Below are positions 3,654-60,841 of a DNA stretch of 64,000 bases, in pieces. The stretch's first letter is position 1, and each line of letters starts with the position of its first letter. The notes under the pieces are model-generated. The model had not been told where the DNA came from and searched no databases. It worked only from the letters and a program-made list of their open reading frames with translations. This stretch comes from an uncultured Akkermansia sp. (GTDB lineage Bacteria > Verrucomicrobiota > Verrucomicrobiia > Limisphaerales > UBA9464): NCBI GenBank assembly GCA_964430505.1, contig CAYSGH010000016.1, positions 499 through 64,498 of the forward strand, in the 5' to 3' direction. The position numbers were made by a program, and so were the translations under genes.

Positions 3654-3827
3654 CTCGTGCCCCCAGCGTTGCCCGGTTGCCATGTTTTCACAATCACGGG
3701 TTCAAGACGGTCCGACGGGGCGTCGGCGTGTTGGTCGGCCGCGGGTGCGGCTCACCACGGCCACTTGGGGATCCCCGGGGCACGGTTTTCCACCACAACG
3801 ACATGCGGGGGGGTGTTGCGTCGGCCG

Positions 3828-12307: not shown

Positions 12308-12541
12308 ATGAAGGCAAGACTCGTGGGTTGGGCGGGGAAATGGGCCGGGTTGTTGGCGCTGGCGGCCTGGGCTGCGGGGTGCCAGGCGGTGAAGCCATGG
12401 CAAAGGGGACAGTTGTCCAACCCATTGATCCAGCCTGATCGCGACCCGTTGGGGCTGGCCTTGGCGGAGCATGTGTTCTTCTCGCGGGAGGCCGCCATGG
12501 GCGGCCGCGGCGTGGGCGGCGGCGGTTGCGGGTGCAACTGA
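12308..12541 (+). CDS. DUF4266-family small lipoprotein
   Basis: 77 aa. Lipobox LLALAAWAAGC (Cys25). PWQRGQLSNPLIQPDRDPL...EHVFFSREAAMGG and the terminal GGGGCGCN tail match my recollection of DUF4266 proteins. Confidence 0.65.
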   Translation: MKARLVGWAGKWAGLLALAAWAAGCQAVKPWQRGQLSNPLIQPDRDPLGLALAEHVFFSREAAMGGRGVGGGGCGCN

Positions 12542-12593
12542 GGGCTCGGGAAGGCGTCGGTTGAACAACGTGTTGGGAGACAAAGGACGGATC

Positions 12594-34822: not shown

Positions 34823-35701
34823 CTACTTGGAGGGTGCATCCTTGAGGACAACGCGCATGCCCTCCTTTTCAAGCTCGGCGACGAGCTTCTTGGATCTGGA
34901 CGAGAGTCGGTTTCCCTGGAGGTAGAGGCGGAGGAAGGGCGCCCAGTTCTTGGGGCCCTTGGCATCCGCCATGGCGGCCGCGTGGAGGGCGGACAGGTCG
35001 TCGATCTTGTTGTCCGCCGCCATGACGAGGCTGGGGGCGCGCAGGGAGGCGATGGGGGAGATGTCCCGAAGTTGGTTGCGCGAGACGGAGACGGTGGTCA
35101 GGCCCCGTAGGTTTCCGAGGCCGGCGATGGACTTCAGTTGGTTGCCATCGGCGTAAAAGGTCACGACGCGGGGAAGGTTGGTGAGCGGGGCGATGGACTT
35201 GAGCTTGTTCCGCGAGAGGTAGATGGACGCGAGGTTGGTGCAGGAGGCGAGGGGCGCGGGGTCGGAGACCTGGTTGGACTCGAGCTGGATGTACTGGAGG
35301 GAGGGCAGCGTGCCCAGCGGGGCGATGGAGGCGATGCGGTTGGAGGCCAGGTGGACGAACTGAAGCTGGCGAAGGCCTTGGATGGGGGCGAGGTCGGCGA
35401 TGGCGTTGCCCGCGAGCTCCAGGGAGGCGAGCGCCTTGCAATGCTCCAGGCCGGCAAGGTTGGTGATGCCCCGGAAGTTGCCCTGGACGACGGCGACGTT
35501 GGCCACGTCGGCGGCGGTAAGGGGCTTGTCCGTGTCCCGCTTGGCAAAAACCTGCTGCCGGACGGCGGCCTCGAGCTTCTTGTCGGGAAACACCGAGACC
35601 TCCATCGGGGCATTGGTGGCGTCCGCCGCCACGCAGGTGGCGACGGCGGTGGACAGTGCGAGGGCGAACGCGGACAGGCGGGTGCTCATGCTCATGCTCA
35701 T
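34823..35701 (-). CDS. secreted leucine-rich repeat protein (internalin-like 22-residue LRRs)
   Basis: Signal peptide MSMSMSTRLSAFALALSTAVATCVA. About 8 repeats of the form L..L..L.L..N.I.D(I/L).PL. Confidence 0.8.
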   Translation of the reverse strand: MSMSMSTRLSAFALALSTAVATCVAADATNAPMEVSVFPDKKLEAAVRQQVFAKRDTDKPLTAADVANVAVVQGNFRGITNLAGLEHCKALASLELAGNAIADLAPIQGLRQLQFVHLASNRIASIAPLGTLPSLQYIQLESNQVSDPAPLASCTNLASIYLSRNKLKSIAPLTNLPRVVTFYADGNQLKSIAGLGNLRGLTTVSVSRNQLRDISPIASLRAPSLVMAADNKIDDLSALHAAAMADAKGPKNWAPFLRLYLQGNRLSSRSKKLVAELEKEGMRVVLKDAPSK

Positions 35702-38354: not shown

Positions 38355-41300
38355 CTATCGGACCTCGACCGCCCGGAAGAGCACCGGTTGGTCGGCGGCG
38401 CCGGCATCCACGGAGAAGGTCAGGCCGGAGCTGGTGGCGGTCCATTCGGCCTCGGACCACCACGATCCGAGGTCGGTGGACGACTCAATCCGATAACGGC
38501 GGCCGGGGGTGCCCCTCAGTTGAAGGGTGACGCGGCCATCGGGCCCGAACGTGGGGATTCCGAAGGTTGGCTCGCCCGAGGCTGGCTCGCCGTTGGAGGC
38601 CATGGGCGTGGGCTTGGCGACCACGTAGGAACCGGCCGCACCGTCCGGCTGGAGCCCGACGGCGGTGTTGAGCGCGGACGGAATCTGCGCGGTGAACCAG
38701 TCGATGGTGTTCGCCTGGCCGTTGACCGAACGGGTCAGCGCCAGCCGGAGTTGTGCACCGCCGGTCAATGGGAGCCGGAAGTTGGCATGGAGCTCATTCG
38801 GCCGCGATTGCTCGGGCTCGCCGTCGGCAAAGACGACGAGGTATCCGAGCGGCGGGAGGGTCGCTCCCTGGGGGAATGGCCACTTGAAGGGGGCAACGTC
38901 GGCGTCGGATAGGAAGACGCCATCCAGGGCGACCGGGAAGGCGCTGGTGTTGACGATCTCGATCCAGGGCTCGGTGGTGCCGGTGGCGTCCGCGAGGCCG
39001 GACGTATTGCGGGCCACGACCTCGTTGATGCGCAGCGGCGGGAACTCCGGCAACGACGCCACGACGTTGTTGGGGGCTCCGGGCGTGGAGGGGGAGTTGG
39101 ATCCACCCTGGAGGACCAGCTCGAGCCCGAAGACGACGTCCGAGCTGCCCACGTTCGCCTGGTGCACCTCGACGGCGAACGTGTTCTCGCCGGGGACGAG
39201 CAGGCTGGCGGGGAGCGTGAAGGGTCCCTCGAAGGCGGCGTCGCCCACGACCCGGTTCGCGAAGGTGTCATGGGTGGGATCGACGGACTCGTCCATGCCC
39301 AGGGAATGGGCGCGTCGGCCGTTGATCCAGAGGACGTAGCCGTCATCGAGGCAGACAGTGAGCTGGAGGGATGCGTCCGGCGGGAGGGCTGGCAACGTCA
39401 CCTTGCGGCGGAAGTAGTAGGTGGACTGGCCCAGGGCGAGCGCCGTGGTCTTGTTCGTGGGCAGGGCGGCGTTCTCGACGTAGTGAAGGCCCTCGCCCGA
39501 GAACCACGCCGAGTCATTGAACCCGGCCGTGCGCCAGTTGGTGCCGCTCACGGGCGGCCCGTCCTGGAAGTACCGCCATGCGTCGGTGAACCGGATGAGG
39601 TTGCGGCTGCCGGTGAAGGCGCCGGACACGGCCCAGTTCCCGGGCCTGTTGCGGTCCTGACGCGCGTCCACGAGCTGGAGCGACGCGTTGGTGGCCGCCG
39701 TGCCGCCCGCCCACGGGTAGCCGGAATCGTAGTCGAGCCGGTCGAGGATTTCCGAGGGCTGGGACGCCGAAGCCGGGGTGCGCAGGACGATGGAGTCGAA
39801 CTGGGTCCCGAGGCCGCCTGTCCATGCACCGGCCACGTTGGGGCCGTTGCCAAACGCGGCCCGGAAGGCGGCGACGTTTTGGACGACAACCACCTGCGCG
39901 GCGGGCGCAAGGACCGTGCCCGACGGGAACGCAAAGCGAATGCTGGAACCCACCAGTTCCATGCCGGAGATGTCCCAGGGCGTGTTGGTGGAGCGGTTGA
40001 AGATCTCGATGAACTGCGTCCCCGGCGTCTGCGGGCGGCGAAGGACCTCGTTGATCACCAGCTTCGGGCGCGCACGGGTGACCACCTCGACGACGCGCGT
40101 GGCCGAAAGATTCGGCATGGCATCGTCCGTCACGCGCACGGTCACCCGGTTCGTCGATGCGCCCATGTCGTCGGGCAACCGCCATTCGAGGTCGCCCGTC
40201 TCCGGGTTGATGGTCGCCCCGGCAGGCGCGCCCGGCTCGAGGCTGAAGCGGAGCGTTTGGCGGGGCAGGTCCGCATCCGAGGCGACGGCACGCACCGCGA
40301 TGCGTTGGCCCTCGTCCACGACCAGAACAGGCACGGGCGCGAGGACAGGTGGTTGGTTCACCTCGCGGACGTTGATCAACACCTCGCGGACCACGGACGC
40401 CTGCTCGGGCGAGGTGTCGCGTGCGCGGACGAGGACGACGTAGCTGCCGGGGCCCTGGGCCTCCGTGGGCGTCCATGAAATGCGGCCGGCCGATGCATCG
40501 ATCGCGAGGCCGGCGGGAACGGTTCCCTCGAGCGAGAAACGAACGGGCGATCCCTCGGGATCGGCCGCGACGAGGGGAAGATCCAGGCGGGTCAGCTCGT
40601 CGATGGTGACGGGCGCGGGCTGTGGGAAGTTGGGCGGGTTGTTGACCTCCGCGACGTTCACTCGGACGAGGCCGGTCGCGGAAAGCGGCGGCGTGCCGTT
40701 GTCCGTGACACGGAAGGCGACCGTCACGACGGAGCCGCCGCGCGACTCGTCCGGGATCCAGGTGAGTTGGCCCGTTGGCGAGAGGGAAAGGCCATCCGGC
40801 ACGGGTCCGTCCACGGCAAACGCCAGCGTGTTGGCGGGAAGGTCGGGGTCGGACGCAGGCAACCCGATGCTGAGGAGCTGACCCTCGCCGGCGTTGGCCT
40901 CGGTCACCTCCGGGACGACGGGCGGGCGATTCACCTCGGCAACGTTGATGGCGACGCGGGTGGTCCCGGTCCGGGGCGGCGCGCCGTTGTCCGTGGCGCG
41001 AACGAGGAACGAAAAGGTCCCGGGGCCATCGGACTCGGAGGGGGTCCAGCGGAAGGCGCCCGTGACGGGATGGATGCTGGATCCAGGCGGGGCATCGGAC
41101 CCCAGCGAGAAGGCAAAGGACTGGCCCGCGTCTGGGTCGGAGGCGACGGCGGTGAAGGTGGCCTCGGCCTGCTCGGGGACGTTGAGGCTCGCGACGGGAT
41201 TGAGGACGGGCGGGCGATTGGCCCCGGCGATCACGTTGGCCGCGCCCGGCGTGGGGGACTCCATGGCGAACAAGGGCGGCGCGGACGCATCGGGGAAGCG

Positions 41301-44300
41301 ACCCATGGAGACGTCGTTGGTCTGGGCGGTGAAGGAGAAGCCATCGACGAGGTTGCCGGCGGGGTCGAAGAGCCCGATTTGCTCCCCGGAACGGGCGAGG
41401 GCGAAGGCGGCGTGCAGCCCGGCGTTCGTAGGCTGGTTCTGCGCCGTCTCGTTGTCGGCCCACACGAGGAGGAAGCCCCCGGGCGGGATCGCGTAGCCGC
41501 CGGGGATCCGGAACATCGAGGCCAACGCGTTGGTGAGGTTGTCGGTGAGGTAATACCCCGCGAGGTCCACGGGCTGCGTACCGGCGTTGTGGAGCTCGAT
41601 CCAGTCGTCGAAGTCGCCATCGGCCGGGTCGGTGACGGTGCGGGTGTTCTGCGCCATGAACTCGTTGATGAACACGTCCACGCGGGGCGTGCTCGGGTCG
41701 TTGGTGCCGCCCGGGGTCGGGTTGAAGAGGATGCGGCGCGTGCGGGGCTCGCCGTCGGGAACGGACCCGAACGCGCGGCCCTGCGGCAACAGGTCCCACG
41801 CCAGGTAGTCGATCGCGGCGGGAGCATTGGCGGTTCCCTGCCGCCGCGAGAGTGCCACCACGCCGTTGGTGGGGTTCAGCCGGAAGGACGTGTGCGGGAT
41901 GGTGGCGGTGGACTCGCCGGGCTCGCCGTCGGCCCACACCGTGAGAATGCCGCCCGCCGGGATGGAGAGCCCGGCCGGGAACGCCCACTGGACCAGGTTC
42001 GTGACGGAGTCCGACAAGAAGAGCCCAGACAAGGAGACGGCGGCGGGGCCGGTGTTGATGATCTCGATGAAGGGGTCGCGGTCCCCGAAGTTGTCGGCGG
42101 GACCGGACAGGTTGCCGGGCAACACCTCGTTGAGCCACAGGCTGGGGAAGGCCGCCAGGGATTGGGCGGTGGCGTTGGCACGGCCGGGCGTTGCGGCATT
42201 GGCGGCGTTCGTGGCGGTCGTGGCCCAGTTGCCGACGCGCCACGAGCCGCGGGATGGGTCGATGAGCTGCAAGGATGGCCCGAGGCCGTCGGCGTTGGTG
42301 GGCCAAGGGAGGCGGTTGTCGTACCGCACGTCGGTGACGAGGACGCGGTTGGTGCCCACGTTTTGCCAGAGGGCGATGCGTTCGCCGCCGTTGTCGAGGG
42401 AGCCTGGGAACTCGCCGAACACGGGAACCGATGCGCCGTACGCGGACGCGAACGCAACGCGGTCGCGTGCCAGCACCAGGAAGGCCCCGGGCGCGAGCAC
42501 GGAACCCGGGGGGAACGTGTAGCCGACGCCCTCGAGGTCGAACCCGGAAAGGTCGAACGCGGAGGACGTGGAACGGTTGTGCAACTCGACGAAGGAGGTG
42601 CCGGAGGCAGGGCCGTTGTACTGGACCTCGTTGAGGACGACGAAGTCGGAGGCCCTCTGGAACGCGCCGGCATAGGTGACCGTCACGTTGGCGGCCATGC
42701 CCGGGATGGCGTGGCCGGACCGGTCGGTAGCAGTAAGGACGAGGGCGTTGGTGGCGGCGGACAAGGGGATGCGAAGCCGGAACCGCTGCGGGTCGATCCA
42801 CTCGGTGGGGACGGTGCGCCCGTTGACCAGGATGTCGGCGGCGGCGAACGGCGCAATGCCCTCGACGGTGGCGACGGGCGTTGGAGACGCGAGCGTGCCA
42901 TTGGCGGGGACGGTGATCGCGAAGGAGGCGGCGTCGCTGGCGGCGATCTGCTGCCGGACGACCTCGCGGCGTGCATCGAGGTAGGAGGCGATGCCCAGGG
43001 GGCCGCTGGCGTTGATGCGATTGAACGCGAGGGAAGCCGAGCGCGCGTCGAACTGGGGCTGGTATTGCGAAGGCTGGAACGGCCCGGCCACGGCCTGCGC
43101 ATAGGCACGCCAGGCCATGCGTCGGAAGGCAGGCCACGCGAACATGTAGTTCACGTTGCCGTCGTTGCCGTCGAAGAGCCTGCGGCCGGGGCCGTCGCCG
43201 GCGCCGAGCACCCAGTCCATGTCCCAGGGCAGGATGACCCAACGGCCGCCGGGCGGATAATAGACGTACTTGTTCTGCGAGTTGCCCGTGCCCCACGTGT
43301 CCCAGTTCCCCATGCAGCCATCGAGGGCGAACATGGTCATCCACTGCTCCATGTCGGCGACGTTGCTGACGACGGCCTCGTAATTCGTGGAGCGGTTGTT
43401 CGCGGCGGAGACCAACGCGAGGAAGTTGGTGAAGTCATTCGCCGTCGTGCCGTTCGGGCGCCCCTGCCAGTTCCAGCGGTAGCGCGACAGGTTGAACTGG
43501 CCGTTGGGGTTGCGGTAGTCGCCCAGGTCGGCCCCGACGACGTCGAAGCCGCCCCCGCTGTTGAACTCGAACCAGAACGCCACCTTGTGGAGGTCGCCCT
43601 CGGGCGCGTCCGGGTACCACGCCTCGGCGTAGTTGTTGTTGGGCTGCTCCAGGTCCTCCCCGACGGCCCCGTGCGGGTTGCCGTTGCGGAAGAACCGGAT
43701 GTAATGGGCATGGAGGTAGGGAAGGCCCATGCGCCGCGTGAACCACTGGGCCATCTGGTTGCGCAGGAAGGTGGGTTCCTCGCCGCCGTTGCCCGTGAGG
43801 CCAAAGACCCTGTCCGTCACGCCGAGGAGCCGGTCGTCGCGCGGGACCGTGACGGCGAAGTCCGCCTGGCCCGTGAAGGGGCTGCCCTTGCGGCGGATGC
43901 CCGCGTTGTAAATCACGCGGACGTTGCCATGGACCAGCGTCCCGTCGCGGAACGTGTTGTCGAGCCCGTCGGCGTTCAGGGCGTTGTCCACCTCGGGCGT
44001 CGTCCACGAGTGGATGTGCTCGTAGGTGCCGAACGGCACGGGGTCGCCCCAGCGAACGTTGGCCTCCGCCACGGCGGGCAAGCCCGCGATGACAGGCCCG
44101 GATGGGAATGTGGACCAGGCAACGCTCGGCGCGCCATCCGCCGCCTCGATCCGGAACTGGACGAGGCTGCCGGCGGAACGGCCCGTGATCGTCGCCGACC
44201 ACACGCCGTCGCCCGCCACGGCGTCGCCCAGCAACCCGTCGTCGCGCATGGCAGTCGTGCTGAAGGCGCCGGTAGAACCGCTCCGGAAGCGCAGGTTGAC

Positions 44301-47300
44301 CGAGCTGAGGCCGTCGGGGTCGGACACGCGGGCGGTGACCACCACCGGCTGGCCGGCATCGGGCACGGCGGGCGCATGGGAAACGTTGTGGATGCCGGGG
44401 CCGGCGTTGGCAACGAGCCGGCTGTTCGGCTGTCCGGGCGTTCCCAGGTTGCGCGGGACCGCCATGCGCGCGGTCATCTCCAGGCCGCCGCCGCGCGTGC
44501 GCATCAGCAACTCGGGCCAGCCCGCCACCCAACGGGCGCGCAGCCGCATCGTCCCGCGGACGTCGTTGTTGAGCCCTCCGCTGATCGGGGCACGAACGCA
44601 GTTCCGCCCGGCGTCGAGGTCGCCCGGGGCGATGACGCGCAGCACGCGGCTGCCCGCGAAGGCACCCGTGGCCTCCACGCGCGAACGCGAGTGGTGGCCG
44701 CCAAACGTCCAGCCAGTTGCGGCCGTGCCTGATCCAGCTTCAAAGCCGCCGTTGGACAGAAGGGCGAGGCCCGTCGGACCCAGGACCTCCACGTTGTCCA
44801 CGAGGCATTCCCCAGCACCCAGCATCCCCAGGTGGACCCAGTCCGGCGTCTGCGAGCCGAACCGGAGCACGTCGTTCACAGAGAACTCCTGCCAAGGGGC
44901 CTTGCCCGACTCGTCGGAATCCGCCCAACTCGGCGCCCGCAACGGGTCGGCCCTCGGGTCGATCAACTCCAGGGACGAGCCGCCGCCATCGGCCCACTTG
45001 CCCCAGCGGCCCCCATCCCGCCATGCGACCTCTCCCACGGGGATCGCAACCGTGCGGGACGTCACCTCGCCGAGGTCGTTGGTGGACAAGATTTCGTCCG
45101 GCTTGGACAGCGTGATCCGTTCGCCGCGGTTGCGAAGGGAACCAGACCAGTTGCCGTGCACGATGGCAGGCGGAAGCGAGGTGTGGTTGGAGAGAAGCCG
45201 GGCGCGGTCGGCCCCCACCACGACGAAGCCGCCCGCCGGGACCGTCACGCCCTGCGGGAAGGTGAAGCTCACGGCGTCGGACAGGCGCCAGCCCGAGAGG
45301 TCCACGGGCGCCCCGGACCGGTTGTGCAGCTCGACAAACTCGTCGGCGTCGTCCTGCGAGATCGGGTTGTACATGATCTCGTTGATAACCATGTCCTCGA
45401 GGCGTCGCGGGTCATTGGCGGCCCCGGGCGTGCGGCCGGCCAGCCGGCGCGGCTCCGGAGCCCCGTCCGGCGCGCGGCCGAAGGAGACCCCGTTCTCCTG
45501 TGCATCGAGTCGGATCACGTCAACGACGCGCAGGCCATTGGAGCTGACCAGGAAGACCGTCTCGCCGGCCGCGTTCAGTCGGAAGCCGAGCGCCGACTCG
45601 TCCAAGGCGAGGAACGCGCGCGGAGCCAGCGTCGTGCCCGCCGGGAACCGGTACCGGTTGGTGCGGACGTCGTCGGTCAGCACCCACCCGTCGAGCGCGA
45701 CGGGGTTGGGTCCCCGGTTGTACAGCTCCACGAAGTCCACCAACGGAGGGTCCGTGTGCGCGAGCAACTCGTTCAGGACGACGGCATCCGACGGGTCCAC
45801 GACGATCGGATCCGGCGCGCCGGGGTTGCCCCCACGGACGGCACTGGCGGCATAGGCTCGCGGGTCTGCCTCGCCGAAGCTCGGGTTCACCAGCACCAGC
45901 GAATGGCCGGAGCCATCGGCCGCGACGGGCCACGGGGCGCGGTTGTCGTACTCGAGATACAGCTTCTGCGCGCCCAGCTCGTCGCGCAGCTCGATGACGT
46001 CGCCGCCGTTGTTCAGCGAGCCCGTGAACGGGCCGAGCACGCGCGCCAGGCCCGTGCGGGTCCTCGTCACGCCCGGGTCGGCCGAGACCACCAGGAACTG
46101 CCCGCCGGCAAGGTGTGTCCCCGGCGGGAAGGTGTAGGAAATGCCGCCTCGCAACGACCAGCCCGAGAGGTCCTCGGCGATGTCCGACGCGTTGAACACC
46201 TCGACGAACTCGGGGCCGGACCCCGGGCCGGACGCGGCCGGGTTGTAGTGGATTTCGCTGAGGACGACCCGCGTCCTCCGGCTGGAAACGCCCAGCCCCT
46301 CGCGCGTGGGCACGAAGGGTGCCGTCGTCGGGGCGGGCGCCGGGCCAAGGTCGGCAAACCTCGCGACGGCGGTGACGTCCGCGTTGCGTCCCGCCAGCGA
46401 CAACCCCACCGAGAGCTGGGCGGGCATCGCGGCATTGACGGCGCCCAGCTGTGTCCATCGCGATCCATCGAGGGAGGCAAAGCCCGTAAAGTCGTTCCCC
46501 ACTCGGCGCAGGCGCAGCCATGTGAACGGGTGGTTGACGGGGAAGCCGCCTCGAATCGAGGCCGCGTTGGCGACGGCGGAGGCGGCGTTGCGGGACTCAA
46601 AGAACACGCCGGCCCTGGGCGTGGACGCGAACACGCCGGCGAAGGGCGCGTTGCTGCCCAGGCCGGAGCGCGCCATCAACCCGGCCGTGGCAAACGGGTC
46701 CGCCGCGTCGAGCATCGTGACTCGCACGCGCAGGTCGAAGTTGCCACTGACGGCCTGCCATCCGAACCCGGCGACGTCCGCCGTGCCGCCGACGTCGCCG
46801 CCGCGCGCCGTCAGCTCGAAGGCCCCGGCGTCGGCCCGGACAACCGTCGCTCCGACGGCTTCGGAGCCGAGGTTGGCCGGGGACAACTCGGACGCGAAGA
46901 AGGCGATGGTGGCGTTGGCGGCCAGGGGGTTGGCGGCGGCAGCACGGTCGGTGACGCCGTTGACGGTGACGGTGTAGCGGGTCCCCACGGCGAGGTTGGC
47001 CACGTTGAGCTGGATTCGCTGGGGCGCGTTGCCTTGGGCGGCAGACAGGAGCGTGGCGCCGCCGGTGATCTGGTAGGCGGACGCGAGCGGGAGGGACGAC
47101 GGGAGAATGGGCTCGGAAAACTCCAGGACGACGGTGTCGAGGCCCACATTGTAGGCGCGGACCAGGGTGGGCGGCACGACGTCGGCCACCACGCCAAGGA
47201 CGGCATCGGCGCTGGTGGTGCCGCCGATGTCATTGCCCACGACGACCGAGAACTGGGCCCCGTTGGCGGAGAGCGAGGCGGCGGGAAGGGTGAACGAGGC

Positions 47301-49163
47301 CGACGTGGCGCCCGCGATGGGAACGCCGTTGCTCCGCCACTGCCACGAGGTGGCGTCGTTGTCCACCGTCGTCACCGAGAAGGAGACGGGGCGACCCTCG
47401 GTGATGGACTGGGAGGCGGGTTGCTGGGCGATGCGCGGCGGCGTCGCGGGCATGAGGATCAGGTAGTCGTAGTCGCCGCTGCTGGGGTTCATGCGCAGCG
47501 TGACGGTGCCGCCCAACGAGAGGGTGCGGGTGGTGCCGGAGCCGTCGCGAAGGGGCACCAACCGGTTGGCCCCCCATGCGCCGGTGCCGTCCCCCACGAA
47601 GGTGCCGAGGTCCTGCACGGTTTGGTTGGCGACGTTCGGGGCCGATGTGACCCGCTGGAGACTGCCTTGCAAGGCTCCCGGCGAACCCTCGCCGTGGCTC
47701 AACGCGGCGAGGACGCGGTAGCGGCCGAACGGGACGGTGCGCGTGTAGTTGTACCATTGCCCGCCACCAATCCAGCCCAGGCGGAAGTTGGTGGTCATGG
47801 TCCACGCGCCCTCGCCGCGCACGAGGTCGGGGTTCTCGGTCATGGGGATCCGCGAGTCGCCACGGTAAGCGGGGCTGGATCCGTCAGGAGAGCGGTTGAA
47901 GTCCACCCCGATCGTGGCAACACGGCCCGCGTAGGCTCCGCCCGTGTAGGGCATGACGGAGGCCACCGGAAGGGCCTGGCCGGCGTCGAAGTTGAAGTCC
48001 TCGGCCTCGATCAGGAACGGGCGGGTGGCGACCGTGGTGAGCGTGGCGCTCGTGTTGGGGGCGACCACGTTGGGCGTCTGCGCGCGGTCCGGGACGTTGT
48101 TGACGGTCAGGACGTAGGTCGTGCCAGAGGTCAGGGCGGCGGTCGCGAGAAGGAGGCGGTTGGGGCCACTGGCCGGTTGCGAGACTCCGGTGACGGCCAG
48201 CGTGGGCGCCAAGCTGAAGCTGGCGGAAGCCGCCCCGGCCGGGGGACGAACGGGCTCGCTGAACACGAGCTCGACGGTCTTCTCGTCCGTGAACGTGGCC
48301 GAGACCAAGGTCGGGCGAGTGGTGTCGGCGGTGACCGTCAGGGTGGCGTTGGCGGACGCAACGGTGCCCAGCGCGTTGGTCAGCAGGGCGGAGAACACGG
48401 CGCCGTTGTCCGCCAGGGTGACGGGACCCACCACGAGGGTCTTGGCGGCCACTCCCGGAAGGGGGGTGCCATTCCGACGCCAGATCACCTGTGTCGGGCC
48501 TTGGTTGTCGTAATCGACCTGGAACGTCGCCGTGCCGCCCTCCACCACGGTCACGGGCTTGGGCTGGACGGAAACGCGCGGCGGCTGCGGGCTTTGCCCC
48601 CACGCGATGAATTGGTCGAGGGGGATGGGCGCCTCGTCCTTGCCATCCGGACGCAACCACCGCACGGCGAGGTTGTCGCCGCCGCCGCCCTCCTTCTGGA
48701 GGGCCTCGACGTAGTACGTCCTCCCGGCCACGAGCGGGATGGCCTCGCTCTTCTGCTCCGCGCTTTGCTCCCAGGCGCGCGAGGGCGTCCAGCCACTAAC
48801 CTGCGCGATCTGCCGACGGTTCGAGGGCGAGTCGTCCGTGCTCAGGAACAACGCCGAGGCGTCGTCGCTCGCAATCCAGAACGTGTAGTTCCCCGTCAAT
48901 GGCGCGATGAAGGTCGCCCGGAGACGCTGGCCGTAGTTGTCGTTCCAGTCCGTGGGCGCCTCGAACAACGCCGTCAACGTCTCCGTCAGCGACGGGTTCG
49001 CCGGGTAGGCCGGGTTGTTCGTCAGGTCGGGCAAGGAACTGCCACCAATCCCGAACCAGACCTCGCGCAACATGCTGCCCGCGCGGCCGACCGGGGTGGA
49101 TGCCAACGCCAACCCGAGCAGCAGCCACGACACCCATCGCAACCGACAAAGGGAATGCTTCAT
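38355..49163 (-). CDS. giant (3602 aa) secreted multidomain surface protein: PA14, Ig, CBM-like, 8 lamin-tail domains, CotH kinase-like domain, 4 cadherin-like repeats
   Basis: ATG at 49163 (MKHSLCRLRWVSWLLLGLALASTPVGRAGS) inside ORF 38355..49235. By-eye map in ORF-track numbering. PA14 ~55-205 (GNYTFWIASDDASALFL...GRTYYVEALQKEGGGGDNLAV). Ig I-set plus SbsA-type Ig ~210-400 and ~590-780. CBM-like ~400-590 (IEAEDFNF). ConA-like ~785-965. LTDs starting near 988, 1150, 1280, 2197, 2364, 2519, 3057 and 3399, each with (V/I)(L/I)NE..., F(V/I)E(L/I).N and an L.GW.L-type block. CotH ~1726-2060 (nt ~43050..44070). Cadherin-like repeats 2673-3056. Galactose-binding-like ~3215-3390. C-terminal module ~3555-3626. 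Confidence 0.9.
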   Translation of the reverse strand: MKHSLCRLRWVSWLLLGLALASTPVGRAGSMLREVWFGIGGSSLPDLTNNPAYPANPSLTETLTALFEAPTDWNDNYGQRLRATFIAPLTGNYTFWIASDDASALFLSTDDSPSNRRQIAQVSGWTPSRAWEQSAEQKSEAIPLVAGRTYYVEALQKEGGGGDNLAVRWLRPDGKDEAPIPLDQFIAWGQSPQPPRVSVQPKPVTVVEGGTATFQVDYDNQGPTQVIWRRNGTPLPGVAAKTLVVGPVTLADNGAVFSALLTNALGTVASANATLTVTADTTRPTLVSATFTDEKTVELVFSEPVRPPAGAASASFSLAPTLAVTGVSQPASGPNRLLLATAALTSGTTYVLTVNNVPDRAQTPNVVAPNTSATLTTVATRPFLIEAEDFNFDAGQALPVASVMPYTGGAYAGRVATIGVDFNRSPDGSSPAYRGDSRIPMTENPDLVRGEGAWTMTTNFRLGWIGGGQWYNYTRTVPFGRYRVLAALSHGEGSPGALQGSLQRVTSAPNVANQTVQDLGTFVGDGTGAWGANRLVPLRDGSGTTRTLSLGGTVTLRMNPSSGDYDYLILMPATPPRIAQQPASQSITEGRPVSFSVTTVDNDATSWQWRSNGVPIAGATSASFTLPAASLSANGAQFSVVVGNDIGGTTSADAVLGVVADVVPPTLVRAYNVGLDTVVLEFSEPILPSSLPLASAYQITGGATLLSAAQGNAPQRIQLNVANLAVGTRYTVTVNGVTDRAAAANPLAANATIAFFASELSPANLGSEAVGATVVRADAGAFELTARGGDVGGTADVAGFGWQAVSGNFDLRVRVTMLDAADPFATAGLMARSGLGSNAPFAGVFASTPRAGVFFESRNAASAVANAASIRGGFPVNHPFTWLRLRRVGNDFTGFASLDGSRWTQLGAVNAAMPAQLSVGLSLAGRNADVTAVARFADLGPAPAPTTAPFVPTREGLGVSSRRTRVVLSEIHYNPAASGPGSGPEFVEVFNASDIAEDLSGWSLRGGISYTFPPGTHLAGGQFLVVSADPGVTRTRTGLARVLGPFTGSLNNGGDVIELRDELGAQKLYLEYDNRAPWPVAADGSGHSLVLVNPSFGEADPRAYAASAVRGGNPGAPDPIVVDPSDAVVLNELLAHTDPPLVDFVELYNRGPNPVALDGWVLTDDVRTNRYRFPAGTTLAPRAFLALDESALGFRLNAAGETVFLVSSNGLRVVDVIRLDAQENGVSFGRAPDGAPEPRRLAGRTPGAANDPRRLEDMVINEIMYNPISQDDADEFVELHNRSGAPVDLSGWRLSDAVSFTFPQGVTVPAGGFVVVGADRARLLSNHTSLPPAIVHGNWSGSLRNRGERITLSKPDEILSTNDLGEVTSRTVAIPVGEVAWRDGGRWGKWADGGGSSLELIDPRADPLRAPSWADSDESGKAPWQEFSVNDVLRFGSQTPDWVHLGMLGAGECLVDNVEVLGPTGLALLSNGGFEAGSGTAATGWTFGGHHSRSRVEATGAFAGSRVLRVIAPGDLDAGRNCVRAPISGGLNNDVRGTMRLRARWVAGWPELLMRTRGGGLEMTARMAVPRNLGTPGQPNSRLVANAGPGIHNVSHAPAVPDAGQPVVVTARVSDPDGLSSVNLRFRSGSTGAFSTTAMRDDGLLGDAVAGDGVWSATITGRSAGSLVQFRIEAADGAPSVAWSTFPSGPVIAGLPAVAEANVRWGDPVPFGTYEHIHSWTTPEVDNALNADGLDNTFRDGTLVHGNVRVIYNAGIRRKGSPFTGQADFAVTVPRDDRLLGVTDRVFGLTGNGGEEPTFLRNQMAQWFTRRMGLPYLHAHYIRFFRNGNPHGAVGEDLEQPNNNYAEAWYPDAPEGDLHKVAFWFEFNSGGGFDVVGADLGDYRNPNGQFNLSRYRWNWQGRPNGTTANDFTNFLALVSAANNRSTNYEAVVSNVADMEQWMTMFALDGCMGNWDTWGTGNSQNKYVYYPPGGRWVILPWDMDWVLGAGDGPGRRLFDGNDGNVNYMFAWPAFRRMAWRAYAQAVAGPFQPSQYQPQFDARSASLAFNRINASGPLGIASYLDARREVVRQQIAASDAASFAITVPANGTLASPTPVATVEGIAPFAAADILVNGRTVPTEWIDPQRFRLRIPLSAATNALVLTATDRSGHAIPGMAANVTVTYAGAFQRASDFVVLNEVQYNGPASGTSFVELHNRSTSSAFDLSGFDLEGVGYTFPPGSVLAPGAFLVLARDRVAFASAYGASVPVFGEFPGSLDNGGERIALWQNVGTNRVLVTDVRYDNRLPWPTNADGLGPSLQLIDPSRGSWRVGNWATTATNAANAATPGRANATAQSLAAFPSLWLNEVLPGNLSGPADNFGDRDPFIEIINTGPAAVSLSGLFLSDSVTNLVQWAFPAGLSIPAGGILTVWADGEPGESTATIPHTSFRLNPTNGVVALSRRQGTANAPAAIDYLAWDLLPQGRAFGSVPDGEPRTRRILFNPTPGGTNDPSTPRVDVFINEFMAQNTRTVTDPADGDFDDWIELHNAGTQPVDLAGYYLTDNLTNALASMFRIPGGYAIPPGGFLLVWADNETAQNQPTNAGLHAAFALARSGEQIGLFDPAGNLVDGFSFTAQTNDVSMGRFPDASAPPLFAMESPTPGAANVIAGANRPPVLNPVASLNVPEQAEATFTAVASDPDAGQSFAFSLGSDAPPGSSIHPVTGAFRWTPSESDGPGTFSFLVRATDNGAPPRTGTTRVAINVAEVNRPPVVPEVTEANAGEGQLLSIGLPASDPDLPANTLAFAVDGPVPDGLSLSPTGQLTWIPDESRGGSVVTVAFRVTDNGTPPLSATGLVRVNVAEVNNPPNFPQPAPVTIDELTRLDLPLVAADPEGSPVRFSLEGTVPAGLAIDASAGRISWTPTEAQGPGSYVVLVRARDTSPEQASVVREVLINVREVNQPPVLAPVPVLVVDEGQRIAVRAVASDADLPRQTLRFSLEPGAPAGATINPETGDLEWRLPDDMGASTNRVTVRVTDDAMPNLSATRVVEVVTRARPKLVINEVLRRPQTPGTQFIEIFNRSTNTPWDISGMELVGSSIRFAFPSGTVLAPAAQVVVVQNVAAFRAAFGNGPNVAGAWTGGLGTQFDSIVLRTPASASQPSEILDRLDYDSGYPWAGGTAATNASLQLVDARQDRNRPGNWAVSGAFTGSRNLIRFTDAWRYFQDGPPVSGTNWRTAGFNDSAWFSGEGLHYVENAALPTNKTTALALGQSTYYFRRKVTLPALPPDASLQLTVCLDDGYVLWINGRRAHSLGMDESVDPTHDTFANRVVGDAAFEGPFTLPASLLVPGENTFAVEVHQANVGSSDVVFGLELVLQGGSNSPSTPGAPNNVVASLPEFPPLRINEVVARNTSGLADATGTTEPWIEIVNTSAFPVALDGVFLSDADVAPFKWPFPQGATLPPLGYLVVFADGEPEQSRPNELHANFRLPLTGGAQLRLALTRSVNGQANTIDWFTAQIPSALNTAVGLQPDGAAGSYVVAKPTPMASNGEPASGEPTFGIPTFGPDGRVTLQLRGTPGRRYRIESSTDLGSWWSEAEWTATSSGLTFSVDAGAADQPVLFRAVEVR
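40075..41219 (-). repeat. four tandem ~96-aa cadherin-like repeats inside the giant gene
   Basis: The units start with NRPPVLNPV (codon at 41219), NRPPVVPEV (40931), NNPPNFPQP (40643) and NQPPVLAPV (40358). Each contains ...A.D.D...L.FSL....P.GA.I....G...W.P.E...G......V...D.G.P.LS.......I.V.EVN. Confidence 0.75.
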
Positions 49164-49238
49164 GTGAAACCAAGGCTGAATCAGCACAAACCGTGCTAGG
49201 AAACTCCAACGCCGACACCGCCAGACTGCGGACAAGCC

Positions 49239-56822: not shown

Positions 56823-59342
56823 ATGAAGCGCGGAATGACACGGCTTGGTGACCGAATGCTCGCCTTCGTTGGACGTTGGGCCCCGCCGGCGCTCCTCGGC
56901 GGCCTCCTCGCGGCGCACGCCATGGGAGCAGACGTCACGCCGCCTCACTGGGCCTTCCTGCCCGTCCAAAGGCCTGCCGTGCCCTCCGTGCCCACCCGCA
57001 TGGGGGGCGTCGTCCAACCCATGGACGCGTTCGTCCAAGCGAGACTGGCACGCGAACATGTCGTCCCGTCACCCGAGGCACCGCGTGCCACCCTGATCCG
57101 CCGCATCCACCTCGTCATGCTCGGCGTGCCGCCCACGCCCGAGGAGGTCCAGGCCTTCGTCCAAGATCCCGCTGCGGACGCCTACGAACGGCTCGTCGAG
57201 CGCGTCCTCGAGGATCCACGCCTCGGCGAACGCTGGGCACGGCATTGGCTGGACGTCGTCCGCTTCGCCGAGAGCAACGGCTTCGAAACCAACCGCGAGC
57301 GCCTCGCCGCATGGCGCTACCGCGACTACGTCATCGCCGCCTTCAACCAGGACAAGCCCTACGACCAGTTCGTCCGCGAGCAGGTCGCCGGCGACGCCCT
57401 CGACGCCCCCGTCGCCACCGGGTTCCTCGTCGGCGGCCCCGTGGACATCGTGAAGAGCCCGGACCCCGCCCTCACCGCCCAGCAACGGGCGGACGAGCTC
57501 GACGACATGGTGGCCACCACGGGCACCGCATTCCTCGGCCTCACGCTCGGCTGCGCCCGGTGCCACACGCACAAGTTCGATCCCATCACCCAGTCCGAGT
57601 ACCACGGCATGGTGGCCCTCCTCTCCGGCGTGCAGCACGGCGACCGCGACCTGCCGCCCGCGCCGCAGCGCATCGCCCAGCTCGCCGCCCTCGACGCCCG
57701 CATCCGAACCCTCGAGACGCGCCTGGCACCGCACGTGGCCAAGGATCCGGAAGCCCCTGCGGCCCAAGGCGCTCAAGCGCGGCCGCACGTGGACTTCGCC
57801 CGCAACGAGGAGGCCTTCCCGCCCGTCGAGGCCCGCTACCTGCGCTTCACCATCCTGGCCAGCAGCGGCGCGGAGCCCTGCATCGACGAGCTCGAGGCCT
57901 GGGCCGGGGACCGCAACGTCGCCCTCGCCTCGGCAGGCACCGTCGCCACCGCCTCCGGCACCCTGCCCGGCCATGCCATCCACCAGCTCGCCCACATCAA
58001 CGATGGCAAGGTGGGCAACGCCCGCTCCTGGATCTCCCACGAGCCCGGCCGCGGATGGGTCCAACTGGAGTTCAAGAAGCCCGAGCGGCTGCAACGCGTC
58101 GTCTGGGGCCGCGACCGCGAGGGCTCCTTCAAGGACCGCCTTCCCACCCGCTACCGGGTCGAGGTCGCCCTCGACACCAACCGCTGGCAGAGGGTCGCCG
58201 GATCCGCCGACCGCGCCCCCTTCCCCGGCACCTCCCAACGGCCCGCCACCCCCGCCTATGACCTCGCAGGCTTGCCCGCGCCGGAGGCCGACGCGGCCCG
58301 CCGGGACATCGCGGCCCTCGACGCCTTGCGCAAGGAACGCACCAGCCTCGCCGCCAACGACAAGGCCTACGCCGGAACCTTCTCGCAGCCCGGCGAGACC
58401 CGTCGCTTCCACCGCGGTGACCCCCTCCAGCCGCGCGAGGCCGTCGCGCCCGCCACCTTGTCGGTGTTCAACCCCATCGCCCTCGACGCCAAGACCCCCG
58501 AGCAAGACCGCCGCCTCGCCCTCGCCCGGTGGCTGTCCAGCCCCACCAACCCCCTGACGGCCCGCGTCATCGTCAACCGCGTCTGGCAACACCACTTCGG
58601 GACTGGCCTCGTGGACACGCCCAACGACCTCGGACGCAACGGCGCTCGCCCCACGCATCCCGACCTCCTCGACTGGCTCGCCAGCGAGCTCGTCTCCGAG
58701 GGCTGGAGCCTCAAGAAGCTCCACCGGCGCATCCTCCTCTCTGCCACCTGGCGCCAGTCCAGCACCCCGCGCCCCGAAGCCCAACGCGTCGATGCCGCCT
58801 CGCGCCTCCTCTGGCGCTTCCCGCCCCGGCGGCTCGAGGCCGAGGCCATCCGCGACTCCATCCTCGCCATCTGCGGCAACCTCAACCCCGAGCCCGGTGG
58901 ACCCGGCTTCTACCTCCACGACGTGGACCGCGAGAACGTCTATCATTACCACCCCAAGGAACACTTCGGCCCCGCCGAGTCCCGCCGCATGGTCTATGCC
59001 TTCAAGGTCCGCATGGAACAGGACGCCATCTTCGGGTCCTTCGACTGCCCCGACGGGAGCCTGGTGACGCCGCGCCGGAGCGCCTCCACGACGCCCTTGC
59101 AGGCGCTGAACCTCTTTAACAGCCGCTTCGTCCTCGACCAGTCCGCCACCTTCGCCGCACGCGTCGAACGGGAGTCCGGCCCCGCCCCCGCAGACCGCGT
59201 GCGCCGCGCGTGGGCGCTGGCCTACCAACGCGCCCCGGACGACGCCGAGCTGCGCGACGCCACCGGCTTCGCCGAAGCCCACGGCACCGCAGCCCTGTGC
59301 CGTGCCCTCCTTAACTCCAGCGAGCTTCTCTTCATCCCGTGA
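56823..59342 (+). CDS. DUF1549/DUF1553 (PSD1-type) protein with an inserted F5/8 type C (discoidin) domain
   Basis: Signal peptide. DUF1549 blocks [17 protein letters not shown] and [34 protein letters not shown]. Discoidin-like [24 protein letters not shown]...GWVQLEF. DUF1553 blocks [46 protein letters not shown]. Confidence 0.85.
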
Positions 59343-59371
59343 ACGATCCCCTGCCCCGCCTCCGAAGCCCC

Positions 59372-60841
59372 ATGCTCGACCGCCGCCGATTCCTCGGCGA
59401 CGTCGGCCTCGGCCTGGGCTCCATCGCCTTTGCCCATCTCCTCGGCCGCCAAGGCCTGCTCGGAGCCAACGTCGCCGGCAAGGAACCCTTCCGTCCCGCG
59501 ATCGACCCCGGCAGGCCCTACGCCCCCCGCACGCCCTTGTTCACCCCCAAGGCCAAGAACGTCCTCGTCATCTTTTGCAGCGGCGCGTGCAGCCACCTCG
59601 ACACGTTCGACTACAAGCCCGAGCTGGTCCGCCGCCATGGCCAGCCCATGCCCGGCCAGGAAAAGCTCGTCACCTTCCAGGGCGAGCAGGGAGCCCTCGC
59701 CCGCAGCCCGTGGGACTTCAAGCCCCGCGGCCAGTCGGGCAAGATGATCTCCGAGCTGGTCCCCCACCTCGCCGCCCTCGCCGACGACCTCTGCTTCATC
59801 CATTCCATGCAGGGGAAGACCAATACCCACGGCCCGGGCGAGAACTTCATGTCCACGGGCCAGACGCTCGACGGCTTCCCCAGCGTGGGCGCGTGGGTGT
59901 CCTATGCGCTCGGCTCGGAGGACCAGAGCCTCCCGGCCTACGTCGCCATCCCCGACCCGCGCGGGAAGCCCCAGAACAGCGTCAACAACTGGGCGCCCGG
60001 CTTCCTCCCCGCCGCCTTCCAGGGCACCGACTTCAACGCGCGCACCCCCATCCGCAACCTCGCCGCGCCCGGCTCCGTGGACGGCCGCCGCGACGCCGCC
60101 ACCCGCGCCTTCCTCCAGCGGATCAACGAGGGCCATGCCTCGCGCTTCCCCGGCGACGGCGAGCTCGCCGCGCGCATCGCCTCCTACGAGCTGGCCGCGC
60201 GCATGCAGCTCGCCGTCCCCGGCGTCGCCGACCTCTCCACCGAGCCCGCCCACATCCTCCGCCTCTACGGCGCCGACGAGGGCGGGTCGCACATCCTCGA
60301 CACGCGCGCCGCCTACGCGCGCAACTGCATCCTCGCCCGGCGCCTCGTCGAGAAGGGCGTCCGCTTCGTCCAGTTGTTCAACGGCGCCTACCAGACCGGC
60401 GGCGAGGGCGTCAGCAACTGGGACGGCCACAAGGACCTCCTCAACCAGTACAGCGTCCACGGGCCCGTCCTCGACAAGCCCACGGCCGGACTCCTCATCG
60501 ACCTCAAGCAACGCGGCCTCCTCGACGAGACGCTCGTCGTCTGGTGCACCGAGTTCGGGCGGATGCCCACCTTCCAAAAGGGCTCCAAGGGCCGCGACCA
60601 CAACCCCTCCGGCTTCACCTGCTGGCTGGCCGGGGCCGGCGTCCGCAAGGGCTTCTCCCACGGGGCCACCGACGACTTCGGATACAAGGCCGTGCAGGAC
60701 GTGGTCACCGTGCACGACTTCCACGCCACGATCCTCCACCTCCTGGGCCTCGACCACGAGCGCCTCACCTACTACCACAACGGCCTCGAACGCCGCCTCA
60801 CCGACGTCCATGGCGAGGTCGTCCGCCCCGTGCTGACCTAG
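59372..60841 (+). CDS. DUF1501 (sulfatase-like) protein with twin-arginine signal
   Basis: The ATG at 59372 gives [25 protein letters not shown] (a Tat motif). A GTG at 59339 overlapping the upstream stop is an alternative start. [26 protein letters not shown]-type C-terminal blocks ([10 protein letters not shown]). Confidence 0.85.

What the first reader, a model, noticed from the sequence alone, without database searches (positions are those of the whole stretch)
38355..49163. 3602-aa secreted mosaic protein with eight lamin-tail domains flanking a CotH kinase-like core
This single ORF covers about 17 percent of the window. After a signal peptide it strings together PA14 and two Ig/SbsA-Ig/sugar-binding-like cassettes. 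A block of 3 LTDs follows, then a CBM-like domain, CotH, and another 3 LTDs. It ends with four ~96-aa cadherin-like repeats, an LTD, a galactose-binding-like domain, a final LTD and a short C-terminal module. The symmetric LTD x3 - CotH - LTD x3 arrangement is unusual. So is the combination of adhesion modules (PA14, cadherin, Ig) with a putative secreted protein kinase fold. The eight LTD starts recur as the + strand string ctcgttga (the NE codons) near 45378, 45770, 42628, 42127, 41661, 40048 and 39021, with a variant at 46260. The function of LTD-CotH giants in PVC bacteria is unknown.
Basis: partly seen in the sequence, partly recalled or inferred. Interest (0 to 1): 0.7.

Follow-up and report, generated by a model that had tools for sequence, protein, structure and literature searches.

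The report
Conserved giant secreted LTD–CotH kinase protein
This is a real 3602-residue secreted protein built around an intact CotH-type kinase flanked by lamin-tail domains, but it is an ordinary member of a large, conserved and still uncharacterised protein family of Verrucomicrobiota rather than a one-off mosaic.

Summary
These are PA14, two Ig/Big_5/lectin-like cassettes, LTDx3, a CBM-like domain, CotH, LTDx3, four cadherin-like repeats, LTD, a galactose-binding-like domain, LTD and a C-terminal module.

The interpretation needs correcting. The architecture is neither a mosaic nor unusual for this phylum. A scan of species-representative genomes gave at least 594 matches to the 791-aa core. 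In about 45 Verrucomicrobiota loci the host ORFs (mostly 2400-3800 aa) keep the same domain order. Each LTD position is orthologous: 50-87% identity between species against 21-45% between LTDs within the protein.

The CotH fold is confirmed (AlphaFold pLDDT 88; Foldseek TM 0.78 to B. cereus CotH). The catalytic Asp, Asn and metal-binding Asp are invariant in 82 of 82 relatives.

No gene neighbour is conserved, and no functional study of the family was found.

The most likely reading is a surface or extracellular polymer-binding protein that carries an active phosphotransferase. The substrate is unknown.

Verdict: new member of a known, uncharacterised kind, of moderate interest.

The parts
38355..49163 (-). 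Whole gene: 3602 codons plus stop. The mature protein is about 377 kDa, pI 4.9, net charge -96.
49080..49163 (-). Sec signal peptide (aa 1-28; K/R-rich n-region, hydrophobic core WVSWLLLGLALA, G-R-A|G-S cleavage site)
   Evidence: Read from the sequence. The A-x-A|G-S-x-L-R-E-V motif is conserved in orthologues L002, L004, L006, L008 and L013. No signal-peptide predictor was available.
48594..49076 (-). PA14 domain (aa 30-190)
   Evidence: Pfam PF07691, 35.4 bits against cutoff 24; 56-83% identical in orthologues
47448..48593 (-). Cassette A: Ig_3/I-set (aa 191-280), Big_5 (281-375), X1 CBM6-like beta-sandwich (376-572, starts PFLIEAEDFNF)
   Evidence: Pfam; X1 profile against PDB gives weak CBM6 hits at E 0.09. 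Big_5, X1 and the following Ig are absent from orthologues L008, L004 and L013.
46314..47447 (-). Cassette B: Ig (aa 573-660), Big_5 (661-762), LamG/DUF1349-like beta-sandwich (763-950)
   Evidence: Pfam Big_5 at 31.8 bits; DUF1349 at 23.8 bits, below its cutoff; profile hit to 3mep at E 1.7e-3
44919..46301 (-). LTD1, LTD2, LTD3 (aa 955-1415)
   Evidence: Pfam LTD, 3 stretches, 173 bits; each position 51-81% identical to the same position in orthologues
44289..44918 (-). CBM_4_9-like beta-sandwich (aa 1416-1625)
   Evidence: Profile hit to PDB 4mgq at E 3.8e-6; PF02018 precomputed on homologues; confidently folded in the AlphaFold model
44019..44288 (-). Ig-like 'choice-of-anchor X' domain (aa 1626-1715)
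   Evidence: NCBIfam NF041940, 34.1 bits against cutoff 25
42939..44018 (-). CotH kinase domain (aa 1716-2075). Catalytic Asp1955 (43299-43301), Asn1964 (43272-43274), metal-binding Asp1981 (43221-43223).
   Evidence: Pfam, 62 bits; profile hit to 5jd9 residues 14-357 at E 3e-15; Foldseek to 5jd9/5jda at E 1e-16, TM 0.78; D/N/D invariant in 82 of 82
42669..42938 (-). Ig-like domain after CotH (aa 2076-2165)
   Evidence: All-beta in the model; present in every orthologue
41247..42668 (-). LTD4, LTD5, LTD6 (aa 2166-2639)
   Evidence: Pfam LTD, 3 stretches, 160 bits; 52-87% identical by position in orthologues
40080..41246 (-). Four cadherin-like / He_PIG repeats of 95-101 aa (aa 2640-3028), 32-43% identical to one another
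   Evidence: Pfam He_PIG at 116 bits (4 stretches), Big_9, Cadherin; 285-288 nt period
39609..40079 (-). LTD7 (aa 3029-3185)
   Evidence: Pfam LTD at 47 bits
39060..39608 (-). X2: galactose-binding-like beta-sandwich (aa 3186-3368)
   Evidence: Profile of 28 orthologues against PDB: rhamnosidase 3w5m at E 1.2e-3, lectins, sialate O-acetylesterase, beta-galactosidase. All weak.
38634..39059 (-). LTD8 (aa 3369-3510)
   Evidence: Pfam LTD at 37 bits
38358..38612 (-). C-terminal fn3/Ig-like module (aa 3518-3602), family consensus ..tl.W....Gr.YRvE....L....W......RFYRv..P-COOH
   Evidence: HMM hits sit at the extreme C-terminus of 81 of 84 ORFs; 37,353 representative proteins at E<=1e-3; no Pfam or NCBIfam model; AlphaFold pLDDT 86, generic beta-sandwich

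Best explanation
The ORF is one genuine chromosomal gene of a Verrucomicrobiota bacterium. It encodes a Sec-exported protein of about 377 kDa and is an orthologue of a large, conserved family.

The invariant heart of the family is a rigid four-domain block: a CBM_4_9-like sandwich, an Ig-like domain, the CotH kinase, and a second Ig-like domain. This block has a complete catalytic centre and sits between two triplets of lamin-tail domains. The LTDs behave as fixed, position-specific scaffold or binding modules.

Lectin-like modules (PA14, CBM6-like, LamG-like, galactose-binding-like) and a cadherin-like stalk decorate the ends. A terminal fn3-like module closes the chain.

Most likely the protein sits on or beyond the outer membrane. 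There its lectin-like modules would hold an extracellular polymer (a glycan or glycoprotein matrix), and the CotH domain would transfer phosphate onto that polymer or onto a partner protein.

Shown here: the gene, the export signal motif, the domain identities, the kinase fold, conservation of the catalytic residues, and conservation of the architecture.

Inferred: surface location, enzymatic activity, the phosphate donor and the substrate.
For: - Gene reality: GC3 of 0.90; the identical protein is on another contig in a Logan assembly of a public run; no near-identical internal repeats.
- Export: signal peptide with a conserved cleavage motif. NCBIfam 'choice-of-anchor X' domain; these families are named for surface proteins that carry alternative anchors (my knowledge of the naming convention).
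- Kinase: Pfam CotH; profile hit to 5jd9; AlphaFold pLDDT 88.3 and pTM 0.88 for the 791-aa core, which implies a fixed inter-domain arrangement; Foldseek TM 0.78 to CotH with and without Mg/AMP.
- Catalytic residues: the Asp...Asp spacing of 23 in the B. cereus chain matches B. subtilis D228/D251, both shown to be needed for activity (PMC7821199). The equivalents D1955, N1964 and D1981 are invariant in 82 of 82 relatives.
- Family: at least 594 genomic matches, conserved domain order, and positional orthology of every domain.
- Lectin-like modules.
- Precedent for extracellular LTD+CotH proteins: C. thermocellum cellulosomal Cthe_0239 (PMC6083626).
Against: - No ATP source is known outside a bacterial cell, so kinase activity at the surface is unproven. 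Bacillus CotH works in the mother-cell cytoplasm.
- No candidate substrate, phosphatase or partner gene is linked to the locus. The best neighbour cluster recurs in only 8 of 80 loci.
- The carbohydrate-binding assignments for X1, X2 and the LamG-like domain rest on weak matches (E 1e-3 to 0.09).
- The role of LTDs is not established in any bacterium (PMC6085458).
- Localisation is inferred from sequence only.
Confidence: 0.5

Rival explanations
1. The protein is a non-catalytic adhesin or surface fibre. The CotH domain would serve as a binding module, as reported for the fungal CotH invasins. The LTD, Ig and cadherin-like domains would form a long stalk for attachment or cell-cell cohesion.
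For: The architecture looks like a giant adhesin, with PA14, Ig, cadherin-like and fn3-like modules. Giant genes in PVC bacteria mostly encode surface proteins (PMC5177795). There is no extracellular ATP source and no linked substrate gene. A structural role has been proposed for cellulosomal CotH proteins (PMC12484212).
Against: The catalytic Asp, Asn and metal-binding Asp, plus several charged residues, are invariant in 82 of 82 relatives that are only 35-85% identical overall. That pattern is expected for an enzyme and not for a pseudokinase.
Confidence: 0.25
2. The protein is an extracellular DNA or polyanion binder. The eight LTDs would tether it to eDNA or to the membrane, as suggested for the LTDs of secreted nucleases, for biofilm matrix organisation or nutrient scavenging.
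For: LTDs accompany secreted nucleases such as ExeM, and have been proposed to bind DNA or to direct proteins to membranes (PMC6085458 and PMC4486849).
Against: Seven of the eight LTDs are acidic, with net charge -3 to -14 (LTD7 is +2), and the whole protein is at -96. That does not favour binding to polyanions. Neither this protein nor the family hits examined carry a nuclease or phosphoesterase domain. In ExeM the LTD is dispensable for extracellular DNA degradation.
Confidence: 0.1
3. The ORF is an assembly artefact: a collapse or chimera of repeats joined two or more genes.
For: The protein is highly repetitive at the domain level (8 LTDs, 4 cadherin-like repeats). The source is probably a metagenome-type assembly.
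Against: Internal DNA repeats are at most 78% identical over at most 100 nt. An identical 3602-aa product lies on a separate Logan contig. Orthologues from unrelated MAGs (L002, L005, L006) share the full 25-domain order at 66-88% identity in PA14 and the LTD1-LTD6 span and 41-76% elsewhere. Codon bias is uniform.
Confidence: 0.02

Closest known systems
Bacillus CotH spore-coat kinase (B. subtilis CotH; B. cereus CotH, PDB 5JD9/5JDA)
   Same: Same Pfam family and same atypical kinase fold (TM 0.78). The catalytic Asp, the Asn five residues on in Bacillus (nine here), and the metal-binding Asp are all conserved.
   Different: Only 16% identity. The protein here is exported behind a signal peptide, whereas Bacillus CotH acts in the mother-cell cytoplasm. 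The domain is embedded in a 3602-aa chain. No CotB/CotG-like Ser/Lys/Arg-repeat substrate genes lie nearby.
Cellulosomal CotH proteins of Clostridium thermocellum (Cthe_0239: LTD, LTD, Fn3, CotH, dockerin; CseP/Cthe_0044)
   Same: Extracellular bacterial proteins that combine LTDs with CotH. Their function is also unresolved (PMC6083626, PMC12484212).
   Different: They are much smaller, anchored by dockerin-cohesin, and found in Firmicutes. They lack the LTDx3-core-LTDx3 frame.
Database entries 'lamin tail domain-containing protein' / 'CotH kinase family protein' of Verrucomicrobiota, Planctomycetota and other phyla
   Same: Direct homologues. They are 34-85% identical over the whole 791-aa core, and in Verrucomicrobiota they have the same domain order.
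   Different: None in kind. This copy carries the optional Big_5/X1/Ig cassette and four cadherin-like repeats.
Fam20-type secretory-pathway kinases (Fam20C protein kinase; Fam20B xylose kinase, the latter from my own knowledge)
   Same: Kinases of a related atypical fold that act on secreted proteins (Fam20C) or glycans (Fam20B, my knowledge). [quoted passage not shown]
   Different: They are eukaryotic and act in the ATP-supplied Golgi lumen. No direct sequence or fold match was seen here.
LTD-bearing secreted nucleases (ExeM/NucH type)
   Same: A lamin-tail domain in a secreted, envelope-associated enzyme.
   Different: They have a single LTD and a nuclease catalytic domain. No nuclease is present here.

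Membership tests
CotH kinase family (PF08757) | Sequence match above the Pfam gathering score | tested here: met
   56.9-61.8 bits against cutoff 23.8
CotH kinase family (PF08757) | Atypical protein-kinase-like fold as in PDB 5JD9 | tested here: met
   AlphaFold pLDDT 88; Foldseek E 1e-16, TM 0.78 normalised to the target, over 384 columns
CotH kinase family (PF08757) | Catalytic Asp (B. subtilis D228) and metal-binding Asp (D251) | tested here: met
   D1955 and D1981 align to the NFD and PWD aspartates of 5jd9, which are 23 residues apart like D228/D251. Both are invariant in 82 of 82 relatives, as is N1964.
CotH kinase family (PF08757) | ATP-dependent phosphorylation of a substrate | not testable with these tools
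   Needs biochemistry
Lamin tail domain (PF00932) | Sequence match above the gathering score, once per copy | tested here: met
   8 stretches, 388 bits in total. The weakest single copies score 37 and 47 bits against cutoff 34.3.
PA14 (PF07691) | Sequence match above the gathering score | tested here: met
   30.7-35.4 bits against cutoff 24
Cadherin-like / He_PIG repeats | Tandem repeats of about 95 aa matching He_PIG, Big_9 or Cadherin models | tested here: met
   He_PIG at 116 bits in 4 stretches; Cadherin at 46.6 bits against cutoff 28.8. Calcium binding was not tested.
Verrucomicrobiota LTDx3-CBM-Ig-CotH-Ig-LTDx3 giants (orthologous group defined here) | Same domain order with position-by-position orthology | tested here: met
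   About 45 loci share the order. Per-domain identity to orthologues (31-88%, most domains 40-88%) is generally higher than within-protein LTD identity of 21-45%.
Carbohydrate-binding modules (CBM_4_9, CBM6, galactose-binding-like) | Significant match to a CBM family, and sugar binding | tested here: inconclusive
   CBM_4_9-like: E 3.8e-6 by profile. X1: E 0.09. X2: E 1.2e-3. No Pfam hit above cutoff, and binding is untested.
Known C-terminal sorting signals (T9SS CTD, PEP-CTERM, LPXTG) for the terminal module | Match to the curated sorting-domain models | tested here: not met
   No NCBIfam or Pfam hit on aa 3500-3602. The fold search returned only generic fn3/Ig sandwiches at E >= 0.016.

The most novel reading that the evidence does not exclude
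The rigid CBM-Ig-CotH-Ig block framed by LTD triplets could be a dedicated extracellular phosphorylation machine of Verrucomicrobiota, present in several paralogues per genome. It would phosphorylate an environmental or cell-surface polymer (glycan or protein) outside the cell, using a phosphate donor not yet identified. That would be a bacterial counterpart of the eukaryotic secretory-pathway kinases. The fn3-like 'RFYRV' module that ends these and thousands of other proteins would then be the anchor or export tag that places such proteins on the surface.
Probability: 0.25. Interest if true: 0.75.

Novelty: new member of a known kind. Interest (0 to 1): 0.35.

Why it matters
Extracellular CotH proteins are widespread, in cellulosomes, fungi and PVC bacteria, yet no role or substrate is established for any of them outside spore coats. 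This locus shows that in Verrucomicrobiota the kinase keeps an intact active site. It also shows that the kinase lies inside a strictly conserved 20-25-domain frame found in hundreds of genomes. That gives a well-defined and abundant target for asking whether bacteria phosphorylate substrates outside the cell, and what bacterial lamin-tail domains do. As a single locus it adds little, because it is one more orthologue of proteins already deposited and automatically annotated.

Tried and rejected
- A full-length homologue search timed out. The 791-aa core was used instead.
- A single-sequence search of PDB with the CotH region found nothing. A 45-sequence profile was needed to reach 5jd9.
- The primary CotH kinase paper (Nguyen 2016) is not held, so the active-site residues were taken from PMC7821199. 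The nucleotide-binding Lys/Arg could not be assigned. K1860 is conserved in the family but aligns to Ala in B. cereus CotH, so it was not claimed as the ATP lysine.
- A search for operon partners found no conserved neighbour in 80 loci. The window's neighbours are housekeeping genes (MOSC, HupE, ABC ATPase, methyltransferase, RpoD, enolase-superfamily), shared only with the closest relative L008.
- The promoter/terminator scan was uninformative: counts were at shuffle level.
- The idea that the C-terminal module is a known sorting signal was rejected for T9SS, PEP-CTERM and LPXTG. The idea that it is strictly terminal was weakened, because it also occurs in tandem arrays of up to 21 copies (up to 34 stretches by the library search).
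- A word-indexed search with the module profile returned only 8 short proteins and no useful names.
- DNA binding by the LTDs is disfavoured by their acidic charge.
Full report

Yes. The - strand of window 38355-49235 is open for 3626 codons from a TTG. Third-position GC is 0.90, like the other real genes of this 68-70% GC window.

The N-terminus, MKHSLCRLRWVSWLLLGLALASTPVGRA|GS, has the parts of a Sec signal peptide. Orthologues start the same way and share the motif A-x-A|G-S-x-L-R-E-V directly before the PA14 domain, which fixes the start codon.

Pfam gives these hits:
- LTD: eight stretches, 388 bits against a cutoff of 34.
- CotH: 57-62 bits against 24.
- PA14: 31-35 bits against 24.
- Ig_3/I-set, and Big_5 twice.
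- Four He_PIG/Big_9/Cadherin repeats.

NCBIfam adds a 'choice-of-anchor X' domain at aa 1639-1667. The repeat period of the cadherin-like block is 285-288 nt.

The string ctcgttga sits on the [IL]NE codons at six LTD starts, at 39021, 40047, 41661, 42126, 42627 and 45378. The site near 45770 is ctcgttca and the one near 46260 is ttcgctga.

The three lectin-like calls are only weakly supported:
- The CBM-like domain before CotH matches PDB 4mgq at E 3.8e-6 by profile.
- X1 matches CBM6 at E 0.09.
- X2 matches the beta-sandwiches of a rhamnosidase, an esterase and a galactosidase at E 1e-3 and above.
- The LamG-like domain matches DUF1349/3mep at E 1.7e-3.

**2. Is it an artefact?**

No.
- Direct repeats inside the ORF are at most 78% identical over at most 100 nt, and there is no relevant tandem DNA repeat. 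Assemblers have nothing to collapse.
- The eight LTDs are 21-45% identical to one another, and the four cadherin-like repeats 32-43%.
- The identical protein is encoded on a second contig, in a Logan assembly of run SRR14492199, with the same upstream genes.

**3. What is it?**

The 791-aa core (aa 1380-2170) finds proteins named 'lamin tail domain-containing protein' or 'CotH kinase family protein' at 34-77% identity (173 at E<=1e-5 among the candidates scored). Most come from Verrucomicrobiota. Others come from Planctomycetota, Omnitrophota, Kiritimatiellia and further phyla.

The best 80 are almost all Verrucomicrobiota MAGs, plus a Limisphaera isolate, and several genomes contribute two or three loci. 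The closest match is 85% identical.

The ORFs that hold the core are 1339-3795 aa long, most of them 2400-3800. I annotated them with HMMs built from this protein's own domains. The order is fixed across about 45 loci:

(PA14-Ig-Big_5) - LamG-like - LTDx3 - CBM - Ig - CotH - Ig - LTDx3 - cadherin-like xN - LTD - X2 - LTD - (cadherin-like) - C-terminal module

Per-domain identity to orthologues is 50-88% for PA14, all six central LTDs, the core and X2. It is lower for the stalk and the tail. So each LTD is an old, position-specific orthologue rather than a shuffled repeat.

Among close relatives the only variable piece is the Big_5/X1/Ig cassette (aa 281-660). It is present here and in L002, L005 and L006, and absent in L008, L004 and L013. 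'Mosaic' and 'unusual' are therefore the wrong words. This is the standard layout of a large family.

**4. The kinase**

A single sequence does not reach any PDB entry. A 45-sequence profile matches B. cereus CotH (5jd9) over residues 14-357 at E 3e-15.

AlphaFold2 on that alignment gives pLDDT 88.3 and pTM 0.88 for all 791 residues, so the CBM-like, Ig, kinase and Ig domains are predicted to form one rigid body. Foldseek ranks 5jd9 and 5jda first, at E 1e-16 and TM 0.78 on the target.

In the 5jd9 alignment the aspartates of NFD and PWD are 23 residues apart, like B. subtilis D228 and D251. Mutating either of those inactivates the enzyme (PMC7821199). Their counterparts here are D1955 and D1981. 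These two, together with N1964, are invariant in 82 of 82 family members. R1749 and R1896 are also invariant; E1866 is present in 81 of 82; K1860 and E1836 in at least 95%. This is the signature of an enzyme kept active, not of a pseudokinase.

**5. Context**

The neighbours are housekeeping genes (MOSC, HupE/UreJ, ABC ATPase, methyltransferase, an Fe-S protein, RpoD, an enolase-superfamily protein, an LRR protein, glutathione peroxidase). Elsewhere in the window are GlnA, RecD2, Ppk1 and the DUF1549/DUF1553 plus DUF1501 pair, which I know as typical of PVC bacteria.

Clustering all neighbours of 80 loci finds no partner in more than 8 loci. The gene works on its own, and context gives no clue to a substrate.

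**6. How it probably works**

Shown:
- an exported chain of about 377 kDa, very acidic (pI 4.9, net charge -96);
- up to six beta-sandwich modules of lectin-like type;
- an Ig/cadherin-like stalk;
- eight LTDs;
- one intact CotH active site.

Inferred: the protein is displayed at or beyond the outer membrane, grips a polymer through the lectin-like modules, and phosphorylates that polymer or a partner protein.

The main weakness is the phosphate donor, since no ATP supply is known outside bacterial cells. For that reason I put only about 0.5 on the full statement. Identity and family membership taken alone deserve about 0.9.

Rivals:
- A non-catalytic adhesin or fibre (0.25). The invariant active site counts against it.
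- An eDNA or membrane tether through the LTDs (0.1). Seven of the eight LTDs are acidic, at -3 to -14 (LTD7 is +2), and no nuclease is present.
- An assembly artefact (0.02).

**7. Comparison with what is known**

The domain is a member of the CotH family by sequence, fold and catalytic residues.

The nearest described relatives in architecture are the cellulosomal LTD-LTD-Fn3-CotH-dockerin protein Cthe_0239 and CseP of C. thermocellum (PMC6083626). A 2025 review still calls the role of cellulosomal CotH proteins unclear (PMC12484212).

The role of bacterial LTDs is also open. Membrane targeting and DNA binding have been suggested (PMC6085458 and PMC4486849). One paper models an LTD as an outer-membrane tether in Planctomycetes (PMC6461901).

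I found no paper on the Verrucomicrobiota family itself.

**8. The C-terminal module**

The last 85 residues form a module whose family consensus ends in RFYRv..P-COOH.
- An HMM of 44 orthologue tails hits 84 ORFs in the window and loci, 81 of them at the extreme C-terminus. These include unrelated neighbours: a subtilase, a Calx-beta protein, other LTD proteins, and a 436-aa Ig-domain protein in this window at 12471-13781.
- A profile search of 1.84 billion representatives finds 37,353 proteins at E<=1e-3. Of the best 150, 132 have a copy within 8 residues of the end, often preceded by tandem copies.
- No Pfam or NCBIfam model covers it.
- The predicted fold is a plain fn3/Ig sandwich with no significant PDB match.

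It may be an anchor or export tag, but that is conjecture.

**9. Verdict**

The finding is accurate as a description and wrong only in calling the layout unusual. It is a new member of a known but uncharacterised kind. Interest is moderate. The single locus is ordinary for its phylum. The family it belongs to is a good, well-defined entry point to the open question of extracellular CotH kinases and bacterial LTDs.

Noticed in passing
window 38358-38612 (-) and 13524-13778 (+); loci L002-L080: An unmodelled fn3-like module of about 85 aa ending ...RFYR[VIL]xxP-COOH closes this giant. It also closes a 436-aa Ig-domain protein in the same window and many unrelated secreted proteins (a subtilase, a Calx-beta protein, LTD proteins). 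It has 37,353 representative proteins at E<=1e-3, is nearly always the last domain, and often follows tandem copies. It could be an undescribed anchor or export tag.
   Followed up: partly
window 47184-48323 (aa 281-660): The Big_5/X1(CBM6-like)/Ig cassette is present here and in orthologues L002, L005, L006 and L007, but cleanly absent from the closest relative L008 and from L004 and L013. This is a cassette-level insertion or deletion inside an otherwise fixed architecture.
   Followed up: partly
window 38634-46301 (the eight LTDs): The LTDs fall into two forms. A long form closes with G-x-S-L-x-L-x-D/N-P (then N-W in LTD4 and LTD7) (LTD1, 3, 4, 7). A short form ends G-R/S-x-P-D-G/A, followed in LTD5 by T-P-G-x-x-N (LTD2, 5, 6), with LTD8 closest to LTD5. 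The closest intra-protein pairs are LTD1-LTD4 (45%) and LTD5-LTD8 (44%), which hints at an ancient duplication of a multi-LTD unit.
   Followed up: partly
window 38355-49163: Lysine is extremely depleted: 18 Lys against 228 Arg in 3573 mature residues, with only 4 Cys. This goes with the high-GC codon bias and may be selected in an exposed protein.
   Followed up: no
loci L002 312-3104, L009 130-6885, L010 2182-6885, L062, L072, L073: In several relatives a second large LTD-containing protein with the same C-terminal module lies next to the CotH giant, in either orientation (same strand in L009, L010 and L073; opposite strand in L002 and L072). This is not the case in this window.
   Followed up: no
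window 56823-60841: A DUF1549/DUF1553 (PSCyt2/PSD1) protein with an F5/8 type C domain is followed by a DUF1501 protein. I know this pair as typical of Planctomycetota and Verrucomicrobiota, so it supports the PVC origin of the window.
   Followed up: no
window 34823-35701 (-): A 292-aa leucine-rich-repeat protein lies about 2.7 kb downstream of the giant gene, separated from it by an enolase-superfamily gene on the other strand. No link to the giant was seen in other loci.
   Followed up: no
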